A stretch of DNA of 64,000 nt from NCBI RefSeq assembly GCF_024223415.1, contig NZ_CP100500.1, one strand, 5' to 3'. Made by a program: the position numbers. The first letter of the stretch is position 1, and every line of letters starts with the position of its first letter. Source of the stretch: Escherichia coli. Its GTDB lineage: Bacteria > Pseudomonadota > Gammaproteobacteria > Enterobacterales > Enterobacteriaceae. Shown here in pieces: positions 54,001 through 57,000 of the stretch.

Positions 54001-57000
54001 CCACACCCATCCGTGGAATCAGATAACAGGTGTTCCATCAGCCTCGCTGACGGCAAAAGGTACCGTACAGCTTAGCAGTGCCACAAACAGCAATTCCGAA
54101 ACGCTGGCGGCCACACCAAGAGCTGTTAAAGCTGCGTATGACCTTGCCAACAGCAAAGCCGCGGCAGCCCACACTCATCGCTGGGCTCAGATCACAGACG
54201 CCCCTGTTTTTTCGTCTGTTGCCCGCGTCATCATGGGTAAACAAAGCATAAAAGATATTCTTGATTACCTTGGTTTAGGAGAAGGCTCGACGCTGCCAGT
54301 TGGCGTACCCGTTCCGTGGCCTTCGTCAAGACCACCTGAAGGGTGGTTACAGTGCAATGGTGCCGCATTCACGCGTACAAAATACCCAAAACTGGCAGTG
54401 GCCTACCCTGACCTAAGGCTACCAGATTTGCGCGGGGAATTTATTCGTGGATGGGATGACCTGCGAATGATTGACAGGGGACGCTTATTGTTATCCACAC
54501 AGGAAGCAACATATATTTGTACCGCCATACAGGCGTACCACGGCGTAGCGGGAGGTGCAGATATTCAGGCAGGGATTTCATTTGCATCACATGATAACGA
54601 CATCATAAACATAACCCCTGATCAACCCAGAACCGGTAACGGCATCCTGTACGGCAGAAAACCAGTTGACAGATGGGCAATAGCCAGAGCCGGTAAGCTG
54701 GTGAGTAATGAAAAAGACAGATGGATAGCGATCAGACCGCGCAATATCGCTTTTAATTATATTGTGAGGGCAGTTTAATGAGTAACACTGCAGTTCTGGA
54801 TGAAAACGGTATCGCCACTTTCGCAGGCGATATCACTGTATATCACTATGATGAGGAAACCCGGGAATACACCTCATCCTCTGTGGAGTATCTGGCCCTG
54901 GGGGTGGGTACCCCGGCACATTCATGCGCCGATGCCCCGCCAGAGGCAATGCCGGGTTACGTGATTTGCCGGACGTCCACGCTGGACGGGTGGGAGTATG
55001 TCCCCGATCATCGTGGAGAGACGGTATACAGCACAGAGAACGGTAATCCGGTCCAGATTACCCAACCAGGTGACTACCCGGAAGGGACAACGACAAAACA
55101 GCCTGCCACACCATGGGATACCTGGAACGGTGAGGCGTGGGTAACCGATACAGAACGGCAGCAAGCCGAAGAGCTGGAGGTTACCAGACAGCAACGCCAG
55201 GAACGGGTGGATCAGGCGATGAAGTCCATCGACCTCATCAACCTTAAGTTGCGGGCAGGTCGCAGTCTGACACCAGAAGAAACGGCAAAACTGAATGCCG
55301 TGCTGGATTATATCGACGAGCTGAACGCACTGGATATCAGCACGGGGCCTGAAATAACCTGGCCGGAAACACCACCAGGAATGGAATGAGCGGGGAAAAG
55401 GAACGGGCATTCATAAATAATTCATCATGCAGGTGCCGCAAGAATGCGGCACATTACCTTCACATCAGATCATTTACGCCGCTTACTGTGGTATTCCAGA
55501 CCGAACTTAACTTCCCTTTCATTCCCGAAAGCATATCAGACACCGGCGACGAGGCCATACTCTCCCGCAAATCCTCATCACAGCGTTCCAGACTGACAGT
55601 GAACTCAATTTTTTTGGCCTTACCGTGGCGGTCAAGTTCGCTTCGCGTTGTGCGGACAGCCGTTATCACATACATGCCGTATATCTGCCCCACACCGTCA
55701 ATCAGCGGCCATGGGCGACCAGTGTAAGCCTGCGTCGTTAAAAGGCTGAGGGAAACCTCACCGCCGGTAATTTCGGGATAAAGCACACCGGACAACGTGA
55801 TCTGGTCGTCACCCGCCCCGATATACTGCCAGCTGGCCGAACGATTGATGCGTTCATTTTTAACGTGGCGCCAGGTTTTATTATGTTGCAGTTGTTGATG
55901 AGGCAGCGTACGCAACTCAAAAACAAACATGCCGTAAATCATCATCATGCGAGGTACTCCTAATCTCTGTCACGGAAACTACCGACTGTCTGGCGGATAC
56001 GGCGTTCCATTTCCGCACGGACGGCATCACCCACCATTTTTGCCAGTTCGCGCGGGTTTTGCGTGTGAACATCATGCAGGTGAATATGCAGTTCGCCAGT
56101 TAATCCCCATGGTGCCGGATCACTCTGACGCGGTCGGGGCGATGCGGGGGATATGGGCTGGCGTACAGCCTCAACCACCGGACGGGATGTTGCCGTTACG
56201 ACGGGTGTCATTACCGGCGCAATATTGCCGGACACGACCGGTTTAATTACCGGGGAGAGCGTCGGTATAACATCGCCAGCCATAACCGGTTTGATCGCTG
56301 GCGAAATAACCGGAGCAACAGACTCAGCCATGACGGAACTGACAGGCTGAGGCGCTCTCACTATGCCAGCATCGATAACCAGCATGAGCTCGCGTACTGC
56401 CTCAAGGACAGGACGGGATATTGCCGCCATCACTGGTGTCATTAGCGGGGAGAACGTCGGCATGACATCGTGAGTCATAACCGGTTTGATCACCGGCGAA
56501 ACCACCGGCGTAATATTACCGGACAGTACCGGACGGACGACCGGAGGAATAACCGGCACATTATTCACGGACACCACCGGCTTCACGACCGGCGACACGT
56601 TCGCCGTGGTGGATATCAGCGGCGAAACACTGACAGGCGGTGGCGCTGGCAGCGGTGGCAACGAAGGCACACTGACCGACGGCACCTGCGGCAGTCTGAC
56701 AGGTGGCTCACTGACACTACCCGGTAACAGGGAAGCTGCGCGGTTAAAGCGTTCCTCCTTCCACTCACCACGAACGGCCAGCGCTTCCGGCAGGTTTTTA
56801 AAGATAATATCGCCGGGACCAGTGCGTTTTTTCGCCTGTTTCGCCTCATCCAGCAGACCACCGGTGTTATCGACGATTTTGTTCAGGCGGCGCATAGTGC
56901 CGGTATTCTCCCCCGTCAGGGGTGGTTGCCCCCCTTTGGGTTTTTCGCCGTCTTTTTTATCCTCGTCCTTTTTCGGCGGATTAATGACGTTAACATCCGC

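What the first reader, a model, noticed from the sequence alone, without database searches (positions are those of the whole stretch)
56100..56850. Tape measure protein carries a long Pro/Val-rich repeat extension near its C-terminus
The tape measure product is about 1173 aa, whereas I recall P2 T as roughly 800 aa. The extra length is largely a low-complexity region of short repeats (PVVSPVIKPV, PVISPAIKPV, PVMTPVVTA and similar), visible in DNA as recurring ACCGG-rich strings. Tail length scales with tape measure length, so this phage may make a longer tail, or the segment may be an embedded domain unrelated to length.
Basis: partly seen in the sequence, partly recalled or inferred. Interest (0 to 1): 0.4.

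Follow-up and report, generated by a model that had tools for sequence, protein, structure and literature searches.

The report
Repeat-expanded proline/valine spacer in tape measure
A P88-like (P2-family) E. coli prophage has a tail tape measure protein whose normally short linker near the C-terminus has grown about four-fold by repeated duplication and still varies in copy number between strains, which is a modest curiosity and a natural test of how non-helical sequence counts towards tail length.

Summary
The tape measure gene (window 55960-59481, minus strand, 1173 aa) carries a 221-residue segment (aa 908-1128, window 56098-56760) that is 19.5% Pro and 19.5% Val, against 3% and 6% in the rest of the protein. 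Its repeats are nested: a 4-residue xPVx period, 16-residue units and two macro-units of 68-88 residues. All are far beyond composition-matched shuffles.

It is not an inserted domain. It is an expansion of a 45-70-residue low-complexity linker that every relative carries between a conserved motif (GPGDIxFKNLPxALAVRGEW) and a conserved 45-residue C-terminal end.

The prophage is P88-like, not P2 proper. The linker explains about half of the excess over P2 T (815 aa) and about 70% of the excess over P88 (935 aa).

Among complete E. coli genomes there are intact alleles with one, two and three macro-units (1103, 1173 and 1238 aa). Their indels equal the spacing of the internal DNA repeats, and the neighbouring tail proteins are identical.

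The linker has no family or structural match, and AlphaFold gives it low confidence with no secondary structure. Whether it lengthens the tail is untested, because no imaged phage carries it. I judge it a new variant of a known kind, of low to moderate interest.

The parts
55960..59481 (-). Tail tape measure gene (1173 aa from ATG; the alternative GTG start at 59517 gives 1185 aa; stop codon at 55960-55962)
   Evidence: ORF list; PF10145, phrog_28 and TIGR01760 matches; lies between gpE/E' and gpU homologues as in the annotated relatives
57874..58911 (-). TP901-type tape measure core (aa 191-536); the PF10145 part is at 58201-58800
   Evidence: TIGR01760 at 2e-87; PF10145 at 3e-58
57571..57885 (-). 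Gly/Leu/Arg-rich insert of about 105 aa (aa 533-637) next to hydrophobic segments (aa 521-554 and 656-696). Absent from P2 T and P88 TMP, present in Novemvirus and Reipivirus TMPs
   Evidence: Alignment; BLASTP against P2 T; hydropathy scan
56761..57084 (-). Charged, predicted helical segment (aa 800-907). It ends in the conserved motif GPGDIIFKNLPEALAVRGEW (aa 888-907, window 56761-56820)
   Evidence: Invariant columns in alignment A1; AlphaFold helices
56098..56760 (-). Pro/Val-rich repeat-expanded linker (aa 908-1128, 221 aa). This is the finding
   Evidence: Composition and periodicity; 45-70 aa in relatives; pLDDT 26-52 with no regular secondary structure except one low-confidence 16-residue helix; no Pfam family
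56389..56652 (-). Macro-unit 1 (aa 944-1031): APPPVS... followed by 16-aa units, ending in SRPVLEAVRE
   Evidence: Self-alignment, z = 14
56158..56361 (-). Macro-unit 2 (aa 1041-1108): APQPVS... followed by 16-aa units, ending in SRPVVEAVRQ
   Evidence: Self-alignment; DNA repeat families D2 (spacing 195) and D3 (spacing 231)
56237..56607 (-). Six copies of a 48-nt (16-aa) unit, PV-x-x repeated four times, seen on the + strand as ACCGG... strings
   Evidence: the repeat finder family D1; ACCGG enrichment
55963..56097 (-). Conserved C-terminal end (aa 1129-1173): GELHIHLH, then a helix, then SFRDRD. Presumed baseplate-hub anchor
   Evidence: Conserved in all relatives; phrog_5431 and phrog_17114 match at 1e-16 to 4e-17; AlphaFold helix with pLDDT 77-85. 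The anchoring role is inferred from TMP C-termini in other tails (PMC11948020)
55460..55948 (-). gpU-like tail protein immediately downstream of the TMP
   Evidence: ORF; annotated homologue WP_000979935.1 at the equivalent position
59468..59994 (-). gpE / gpE' tail assembly chaperone pair upstream, overlapping the TMP start
   Evidence: Annotated homologues in L001 mapped to the window; ORF 59632..59994

Best explanation
SHOWN. The segment is the low-complexity linker that all P88-type TMPs carry between a conserved motif (GPGDIxFKNLPxALAVRGEW) and a conserved 45-residue C-terminal end. In one E. coli prophage lineage it has grown from about 45-70 residues to 221 by nested tandem duplication: xPVx quartets, then 16-residue units, then macro-units of 65-88 residues that each end in the motif SRPVxEAVR. 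It still changes length by recombination between its own direct repeats. Intact alleles with one, two and three macro-units exist, and they sit next to identical gpU, gpE' and (in two of the three alleles) tube proteins.

INFERRED. With a proline every fourth residue it cannot be alpha-helical. It is an extended, flexible spacer with no enzymatic or globular domain. It lies in the baseplate-proximal part of the tube lumen, just above the C-terminal hub anchor. It takes up lumen length and therefore adds to the ruler. I expect this phage's tail to be longer than P88's 137-140 nm. Each macro-unit would add roughly one to three tube rings: about 4 nm if coil-like, about 10 nm at the usual 0.15 nm per residue.

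The stated confidence is for the whole statement. The SHOWN part alone I put at about 0.9, and the ruler contribution at about 0.5-0.6.
For: - Alignment with P88, Gemsvirus, Novemvirus, Reipivirus and three metagenomic TMPs places the expansion exactly inside a pre-existing Pro/Val/Ala/Ser-rich linker. Both flanking motifs are invariant.
- The nested periodicity and the macro-unit similarity are far above shuffles.
- Allelic series: 1103, 1173 and 1238 aa, all with intact ORFs. The +195 bp and -231 bp indels equal the spacings of repeat families D2 and D3.
- Partner proteins are the same across alleles: gpU WP_000979935.1 and gpE' WP_001115715.1 in all, tube WP_045146048.1 in the one- and two-unit alleles.
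- The TMP frame is under purifying selection (omega 0.12-0.39 where there is divergence). Between 16-aa units, synonymous differences (0.61) exceed non-synonymous ones (0.37), so the P/V pattern is maintained.
- AlphaFold gives pLDDT 26-52 and no regular structure across the linker, apart from one low-confidence 16-residue helix, whereas the flanking helices score 73-85. There is no Pfam or PDB relative, and only a marginal PHROG match to the ancestral last part of the linker.
- Ruler principle: 0.145-0.15 nm per residue in TP901-1 and lambda (PMC5099701). P88 at 935 aa x 0.145-0.15 gives 136-140 nm, against 137-140 nm measured (PMC5285337).
- In phiCD508, whose TMP is the only solved relative of this one's N-terminal part, a short modelled section of the TMP (its 'lazo' domain, a trimer) contacts the needle tip (PMC11948020).
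Against: - No virion with this TMP has been imaged, so the length effect is pure inference.
- The only same-laboratory comparison gives sub-proportional scaling. pro147 (815 aa, 130-131 nm) against P88 (935 aa, 137-140 nm) is +120 aa for +6-10 nm, about 0.05-0.08 nm per residue. The extra C-terminal material may therefore count little, or the negative-stain estimates are too coarse.
- The AlphaFold run was a monomer with an 8-sequence alignment. Low confidence does not prove disorder in a trimer confined to the lumen.
- RefSeq marks the gene as a pseudogene in close relatives.
Confidence: 0.55

Rival explanations
1. The spacer is not part of the ruler. The extra chain is slack packed in the hub cavity or the first tube rings, and tail length is set by the helical body of the TMP. 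The segment is either selectively near-neutral or acts after ejection. In the second case it would be a stiff proline-rich rod, TonB-like in principle, leading the C-terminus across the periplasm and peptidoglycan towards the inner membrane, where the hydrophobic TMP segments insert.
For: - Copy number varies freely between otherwise near-identical prophages, with no change in partner proteins.
- Scaling between pro147 and P88 is sub-proportional.
- P2-type TMPs are held at 812-815 aa across about 120 phages, so true ruler length seems tightly conserved in this family, unlike this linker.
- My estimate: three chains of 221 aa, if compact, fill only about 7 nm of a 4-nm lumen.
- Period-4 and period-8 P-V arrays occur in the low-complexity stretches of unrelated proteins.
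- TMP hydrophobic segments are proposed to form the membrane channel (PMC11948020, PMC5099701).
Against: - In every system tested by in-frame deletion or duplication, TMP length changes tail length, including regions outside the recognised repeats (PMC5099701).
- Even compact packing takes up lumen length.
- A contracted myophage tube already spans the periplasm, so an extra rod is not obviously needed.
- There is no homology to TonB. The proline period is 4, not 2 (lag-2 count 6 against 8.3 expected).
Confidence: 0.3
2. The gene is decaying in a defective prophage. The repeat expansion is unconstrained junk in a non-functional TMP, as the RefSeq pseudogene flags suggest.
For: PGAP labels the TMP 'incomplete; missing C-terminus' in L001-L004 and leaves the linker unannotated in 26 of 27 genomes. 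One genome (strain 135) has a 10-bp shorter, fragmented copy.
Against: - The ORF is uninterrupted in the window and in L001-L004 (1103-1238 aa).
- All indels are in frame and in whole repeat units.
- omega is below 1.
- The conserved C-terminal end downstream of the repeats stays in frame and is nearly identical.
- The surrounding late genes are complete.
- The pseudogene flag looks like an evidence-alignment artefact of the low-complexity region.
Confidence: 0.07
3. The segment is an embedded functional domain unrelated to length, comparable to the Rpf or peptidase motifs in mycobacteriophage TMPs.
For: None specific. The region is large (221 aa), and each macro-unit carries a conserved short motif (SRPVxEAVR) that could be a binding site.
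Against: No Pfam or PDB hit even at permissive thresholds, and only a marginal PHROG match to the ancestral last part. AlphaFold finds no fold. Composition is 39% P+V with a 4-residue period. The segment arises by expansion of a linker, not by insertion.
Confidence: 0.03
4. The signal comes from something other than the TMP frame: an antisense gene (ORF 56486..57937 on the + strand, 483 aa), an RNA element or an assembly artefact.
For: A long open antisense frame exists here and in the relatives.
Against: The antisense ORF has no Pfam family and there is no Rfam match. Substitutions fit purifying selection in the TMP frame. The same sequence is found in 27 independent complete genomes. Open antisense frames are expected in GC-rich genes rich in Gly, Ala, Pro and Val.
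Confidence: 0.02

Closest known systems
P88-type (Xuanwuvirus / Gemsvirus) tape measure proteins of Peduoviridae
   Same: 67% aa identity. Same gene order: sheath-tube-E-E'-T-U on the strand opposite V-W-J-I-H-G and D. Same TP901-type core, same conserved pre-linker motif and C-terminal end, and the same kind of Pro/Val/Ala-rich linker containing NITPVV...SRPVAEAIR.
   Different: The P88 linker is about 55-60 aa, against 221 here. P88 also lacks the roughly 85-105-aa Gly/Leu-rich insert. Totals are 935 and 1173 aa.
Bacteriophage P2 gpT (815 aa) and the 186 / PSP3 / Wphi orthologues
   Same: Same family and function. 34% identity over the N-terminal 530 aa and the hydrophobic region. P2 also has a short low-complexity stretch, then a strand-helix end (NEYHISLTGG...).
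   Different: There is no alignable similarity after aa 800. P2-type lengths are fixed at 812-815 aa in about 120 records. There is no Pro/Val repeat array.
Tandem 11- and 18-residue aromatic repeats of siphophage TMPs (TP901-1, lactococcal p2, mycobacteriophages)
   Same: Internal tandem duplication within a TMP. Repeat number can be changed while the phage stays viable, and it sets tail length at about 0.145 nm per aa (PMC5099701).
   Different: Those repeats are alpha-helical, marked by Trp or Phe, and lie in the central ruler region. Here the period is 4/16 with Pro, there are almost no aromatics (1 W, 2 F, 0 Y), the segment cannot be helical, and it lies next to the C-terminal end.
Proline-rich envelope-spanning spacers (the TonB X-Pro region) and period-4/8 P-V low-complexity arrays in unrelated proteins
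   Same: Proline at a fixed short period with hydrophobic or beta-branched partners. Examples found here are KPVADPVV, QPVIDTVV and EPVVEPIV arrays. The presumed state is extended and non-globular.
   Different: No homology, only compositional convergence. TonB (from memory) uses a period of 2 with Glu/Lys. None of these is part of a phage tail ruler.

Membership tests
Phage tail tape measure protein (TP901 family core; PF10145 / TIGR01760) | Match to the family core domain above the curated cut-off | tested here: met
   PF10145 scores 197 bits (cut-off 33.2) and TIGR01760 scores 293.5 bits (cut-off 28.8)
Phage tail tape measure protein (TP901 family core; PF10145 / TIGR01760) | Position in the tail operon: after the frameshifted chaperone pair (E/E') and tube, before gpU and the hub genes | tested here: met
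   ORF order in the window and annotation of near-identical relatives and of P88
Phage tail tape measure protein (TP901 family core; PF10145 / TIGR01760) | Long, largely helical protein with internal hydrophobic (membrane-like) segments | tested here: met
   Hydrophobic segments at aa 521-554 and 656-696. Helices were predicted in the modelled C-terminal third outside the linker. The N-terminal two thirds were not modelled
Phage tail tape measure protein (TP901 family core; PF10145 / TIGR01760) | Protein length determines tail length | not testable with these tools
   Needs electron microscopy of virions from the allelic series
P2 gpT orthologue (Peduovirus type) | Collinear similarity over the whole 815-aa protein, including the C-terminal 100 aa | tested here: not met
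   BLASTP aligns only aa 4-532 and 638-799 (34% identity). Nothing significant aligns after aa 800
P88-type TMP C-terminal module | Conserved GPGDIxFKNLPxALAVRGxW motif, a low-complexity linker, then G(E/D)IHxHLH...SFxDxD at the end | tested here: met
   Invariant columns in alignment A1; alignments
Aromatic 11/18-residue TMP repeats | Trp or Phe recurring at 11- or 18-residue spacing | tested here: not met
   Only 1 W, 2 F and 0 Y in 221 aa. The periods found are 4 and 16
TonB-like X-Pro spacer | Proline at every second residue alternating with Glu or Lys | tested here: not met
   Lag-2 Pro-Pro count is 6 against 8.3 expected. Only 7 E and 5 K in 221 aa
Collagen-like triple helix | Gly at every third residue | tested here: not met
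   6 Gly in 221 aa. Lag-3 shows no enrichment
TMP with embedded enzymatic domain (Rpf / M23 / lysozyme type) | A recognisable catalytic domain inside the TMP | tested here: not met
   No Pfam hit on the linker at E <= 10. The only Pfam or NCBIfam hits on the whole protein are the TMP core

The most novel reading that the evidence does not exclude
The Pro/Val array is a distinct, non-helical functional module of a TMP whose copy number is used as a variable. One version: it gives quantised tail lengths in otherwise identical virions, with a rise per residue different from the textbook 0.15 nm. The other version: it acts after ejection as a stiff periplasm-crossing rod that carries one to three copies of a short binding motif (SRPVxEAVR). 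Either would be a new functional class of TMP segment, and the natural one/two/three-unit alleles would make it directly testable.
Probability: 0.15. Interest if true: 0.55.

Novelty: new variant of a known kind. Interest (0 to 1): 0.3.

Why it matters
TMPs are the textbook molecular ruler, and the rule of about 0.15 nm per residue assumes an extended alpha-helix. Here a 150-290-residue stretch of the protein cannot be helical. It also exists in nature as an allelic series of one, two and three macro-units with identical gpU and gpE' partner proteins.

Counting sheath rings in induced particles from three sequenced strains would show how a non-helical segment counts in the ruler, or whether the part next to the baseplate is exempt from it.

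There is also a practical point. This repeat region causes RefSeq to label an intact, probably functional tail gene as a pseudogene, and it breaks short-read assemblies. Public proteins covering it are all 'partial' fragments. That can make prophage-completeness tools score these prophages as defective.

Tried and rejected
- Megablast of the gene against 50,697 phage records found nothing. tblastn of the C-terminal 266 aa matched only the last 45-95 residues of P88-like and Klebsiella phages, never the repeats.
- Pfam on the linker at E <= 10 found nothing. PHROGs gave only a weak hit to the ancestral last 45 residues.
- A PDB profile search with the C-terminal module at E <= 10 found nothing. 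The only PDB relative of the whole TMP, or of P2 T, is the phiCD508 TMP, and it matches only the N-terminal part.
- phmmer of the C-terminal 326 aa against 1.84 billion cluster representatives gave 42 hits. Those overlapping the repeats are unrelated low-complexity proteins.
- Two searches of the 5.8-billion-protein set found the repeats only in three fragment clusters from E. coli, and no full-length entry. Exact look-up of the 1173-aa and 1185-aa products found neither in the collection.
- AlphaFold2 on the C-terminal 381 aa with 8 sequences gave mean pLDDT 49. It is too low for a fold search, so none was run.
- Literature searches for proline-rich TMP segments, and for P2 gpT structure, returned nothing relevant. 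No micrographs were found for the 988-995-aa relatives.
- The antisense ORF and RNA-element readings were rejected.
- dN/dS between orthologous linkers is uninformative because the alleles are nearly identical there.
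Full report
**What is there**

The minus-strand ORF 55960..59517 encodes 1185 aa from a GTG, or 1173 aa from the ATG at 59481 (MKTLDIR...). NCBI's PGAP annotation pipeline uses that ATG in near-identical genomes. All numbering below uses the 1173-aa form.

It is a tail tape measure protein (TMP). PF10145 scores 3e-58, TIGR01760 'tape_meas_TP901' 2e-87 and phrog_28 7e-190. It lies between the gpE/E' chaperone pair and a gpU-like gene.

The window is an E. coli-type prophage of the P2 family (Peduoviridae). The TMP DNA is 93-98.7% identical to 29 complete E. 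coli genomes. There is no megablast hit in 50,697 phage records.

The closest isolated phages by protein are P88 (Xuanwuvirus), the Gemsvirus phage 500465-2 and other P88-like coliphages, at about 67% identity with a 935-aa TMP. Next come Enterobacter phiT5282H (988 aa) and Klebsiella ST16-OXA48phi5.4 (995 aa).

The gene order matches P88, not P2. The sheath-tube-E-T-U block is on the strand opposite V-W-J-I-H-G and D.

**Check of the observation**

The Pro/Val-rich segment runs from aa 908 to 1128, window 56098-56760.

| Measure | Linker | Comparison |
|---|---|---|
| Pro content | 19.5% (43 of 221) | 3.3% in the rest of the protein |
| Val content | 19.5% (43 of 221) | 5.8% in the rest of the protein |
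| Pro-Pro pairs at lags 4 / 8 / 12 / 16 | 16 / 18 / 16 / 20 | about 8 expected; reached by at most 0.1% of 5000 shuffles |
| PV dipeptides | 20 | 8.4 expected |
| ACCGG per kb | 22.6 (15 copies) | 3.5 in the rest of the gene; 1.2 copies expected from shuffles |

A 32-nt DNA family recurs six times, mostly at 48-nt spacing, which corresponds to 16 residues.

Written in register, the segment is a run of xPVx quartets. These group into 16-residue units such as PVLS-GNIT-PVVS-PVIK.

The units in turn form two macro-units:
- U1, aa 944-1031: APPPVS ... SRPVLEAVRE.
- U2, aa 1041-1108: APQPVS ... SRPVVEAVRQ.

They align with a score of 162, against 48 +/- 8 for composition-matched shuffles (z = 14). 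At the DNA level the repeats are diverged (66-81% identity to the reference copy), so Tandem Repeats Finder reports only a weak 12-nt array.

**Where the extra length comes from**

P2 T is 815 aa. About 120 P2/186/PSP3/Wphi-type TMPs in the phage collection are all 812-815 aa.

BLASTP aligns the window protein to P2 T only over aa 4-532 and 638-799, at 34% identity. The 358 extra residues break down as follows:

| Source of extra length | Position | Residues added |
|---|---|---|
| Gly/Leu/Arg-rich insert beside the hydrophobic segments | aa 533-637 | about 105 |
| Charged, predicted helical segment | aa 800-907 | about 105 |
| Net linker expansion | aa 908-1128 | about 170 |

Against P88 (935 aa), the linker accounts for about 165 of the 238 extra residues.

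So 'largely a low-complexity region' is about half right against P2, and about 70% right against the proper comparator.

**It is an expansion of a pre-existing linker**

Every relative with this C-terminal module has the invariant motif GPGDIxFKNLPxALAVRGxW. This is followed by a 45-70-residue low-complexity stretch, and then an invariant end, G(E/D)IHxHLH-helix-SFxDxD.

The P88 linker reads IAQVSKPAPAINITPVVPAPLPPALVPVVAASSRPVAEAIRSPVAS... It already contains the NITPVV and SRPVxEAxR elements that are multiplied in the window protein.

P2 T has an analogous but unrelated Tyr/Gly/Ala/Pro-rich stretch before NEYHISLTGG and a terminal helix.

The expanded repeats themselves have no family. Pfam finds nothing at E <= 10. 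PHROGs matches only the ancestral last 45 residues. No PDB relative of the module exists.

Among 1.84 billion cluster representatives, the only overlaps with the repeat part are unrelated low-complexity proteins. These carry period-4 or period-8 P-V arrays such as KPVADPVV, QPVIDTVV and EPVVEPIV.

AlphaFold2 on the C-terminal 381 aa (8-sequence alignment) gives pLDDT 26-52 across the linker. It shows no regular secondary structure there, apart from one low-confidence 16-residue helix (model residues 230-245). The flanking helices reach 73-85. The model is too weak for a fold search. It does agree with a sequence that has a proline every four residues and so cannot be alpha-helical.

**Copy-number polymorphism**

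The C-terminal 1041 bp is found in 27 of 5426 complete E. coli genomes.

| Allele | Length of the matching region | Genomes | TMP length |
|---|---|---|---|
| Two units (as in the window) | 1041 bp | 8 | 1173 aa (1180 aa in L003) |
| Three units | 1236 bp | 1 | 1238 aa |
| One unit | 810 bp | 17 (eight are re-sequenced copies of one 5,067,659-bp chromosome) | 1103 aa |
| Fragmented copy, 10 bp shorter than the one-unit allele | 800 bp | 1 | interrupted |

The ORFs of the examples I fetched are intact. L003 was the only other two-unit record fetched besides L001. It gives 1180 aa because it carries 7 extra residues outside the C-terminal region.

The three-unit allele has an exact 65-aa (195-bp) duplication. 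The one-unit allele lacks 77 aa (231 bp). Both sizes equal the spacings of the direct-repeat families D2 (195) and D3 (231) found inside the window. This points to recombination or slippage between the internal repeats.

The neighbouring proteins do not change with the allele. gpU is WP_000979935.1 and gpE' is WP_001115715.1 in all of them. The tube protein is WP_045146048.1 in the one- and two-unit alleles.

The gene is also a recombination mosaic:
- aa 801-907 differ from L001 at dS 0.36, while the flanks are nearly identical.
- The N-terminal 530 aa differ from L004 at dS 0.37, while the C-terminal part is identical.

Where divergence exists, omega is 0.12-0.39 in the TMP frame. Between the 16-aa units, synonymous differences (mean 0.61) exceed non-synonymous ones (0.37). 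The P/V pattern therefore appears to be maintained, though the samples are small.

**How it most likely works**

Shown: this is a duplication-expanded, copy-variable, non-domain linker placed next to the conserved C-terminal end.

Inferred from other tails: the distal end of the TMP docks at the tail tip. In phiCD508, whose TMP is the only solved relative of this one's N-terminal part, a short modelled section of the TMP (its 'lazo' domain, a trimer) contacts the needle tip (PMC11948020). That the C-terminus is the distal end is general knowledge of tailed phages. The tube polymerises around the TMP until its far end is reached (PMC10457771).

In TP901-1, in-frame deletions shorten the tail linearly at 0.145 nm per residue. 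This holds even for a region outside the recognised repeats (PMC5099701).

On that basis I favour the reading that the linker lies in the first part of the lumen and adds to the ruler.
- At 0.145-0.15 nm per residue, the one-, two- and three-unit proteins predict 160-165, 170-176 and 180-186 nm.
- P88 predicts 136-140 nm, against a measured 137-140 nm.
- Because the segment cannot be helical, the true increment per macro-unit could be about 4 nm (coil-like), about 10 nm (nominal) or about 20 nm (fully extended). These three figures are my own estimates.

**Caveats and rivals**

The only same-laboratory comparison is pro147 (815 aa, 130-131 nm) against P88 (935 aa, 137-140 nm). That is +120 aa for only +6-10 nm. 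The added C-terminal material may therefore count less than nominal, or the negative-stain values may be too coarse.

The tight conservation of 812-815 aa in P2-type TMPs contrasts with the free variation seen here. This fits a region exempt from the ruler, that is, slack in the hub or lumen. It could be neutral, or it could serve after ejection as a proline-rich rod. I give this rival 0.3.

Decay of a defective prophage is unlikely (0.07). Frames are intact, indels are in whole units, and the end downstream of the repeats is conserved and in frame. The RefSeq 'pseudogene' flags look like an artefact.

An embedded domain (0.03) and an antisense gene or RNA element (0.02) have no support.

**Novelty and verdict**

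TMP length variation by internal duplication is well known. A short low-complexity pre-terminal linker is common to this clade.

What is unusual is the size (221 aa here, up to about 286 aa), the proline-based 4/16-residue period in a protein class thought to be helical, and the natural series of one, two and three units.

I found no phage record, no full-length database protein and no paper describing it. I classify it as a new variant of a known kind, interest 0.3.

Noticed in passing
L001 7747-9522; L002 3442-5217; L003 2848-5043; L004 3043-4812; equivalent to window 55960-59481: RefSeq (PGAP) annotates this intact 1103-1238-aa TMP ORF as a pseudogene ('incomplete; missing C-terminus'). It leaves the linker region without any feature in 26 of 27 complete genomes. 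Public proteins covering the repeats are only 'partial' fragments. This is probably an artefact of the low-complexity repeats, and it could make these prophages look defective.
   Followed up: partly
window 53303-54090, within the tail fibre gene 52766-54778 (+): The tail fibre gene holds a 300-bp tandem repeat of 2.6 copies at 98% identity (100-aa units, '...SSATNSNSETLAATPRAVKAAYDLAAGKAPASHTHPWNQITGVP...'). The tail fibre length differs among otherwise close prophages: 670 aa here, 756 aa in L001, 744 aa in L012 and 626 aa in strain SCU-115.
   Followed up: no
window 56761-57084 (TMP aa 801-907) and 57892-59481 (aa 1-530): There is mosaic recombination inside the TMP gene. aa 801-907 differ from L001 at dS 0.36 while the flanks are nearly identical. 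The N-terminal 530 aa differ from L004 at dS 0.37 while the C-terminal 370 aa are nearly identical.
   Followed up: partly
window 57571-57885 (TMP aa 533-637): A Gly/Leu/Arg-rich insert of about 105 aa lies between the two hydrophobic segments. It is absent from P2 T and P88 TMP but present in the Novemvirus and Reipivirus TMPs. L003 and L004 carry a further 7-aa indel here.
   Followed up: partly
window 55460-61993 compared with 49700-55389 and 61972-63099: The sheath-tube-E-E'-T-U block is on the opposite strand to V-W-J-I-H-G and to D/ogr, unlike P2. This is the same arrangement as phage P88, although the window lacks the DNA invertase and the alternative tail-fibre segment that P88 has next to gpU.
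   Followed up: yes
window 56486-57937 (+): A 483-aa open frame lies antisense to the TMP (549 aa in L001), giving a Thr/Gly-rich product. It has no Pfam family and is most likely a shadow ORF of the GC-rich gene, which is rich in Pro, Val, Gly and Ala.
   Followed up: partly
L012 3501-6802 (E. coli strain 135, CP080260): One genome has a copy of the linker region 10 bp shorter than the one-unit allele. There the TMP is split into several annotated pieces. This is either a real frameshift or a sequencing error in the repeats.
   Followed up: partly
proteins P0086, P0124, P0125, P0115: Unrelated proteins from metagenomes carry long period-4 or period-8 Pro-Val arrays (QPVIDTVV, KPVADPVV, EPVVEPIV, KPTIEPTV). 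One example is the N-terminal half of an EngB-like GTPase. Such arrays are therefore a recurrent low-complexity design outside phage tails.
   Followed up: no
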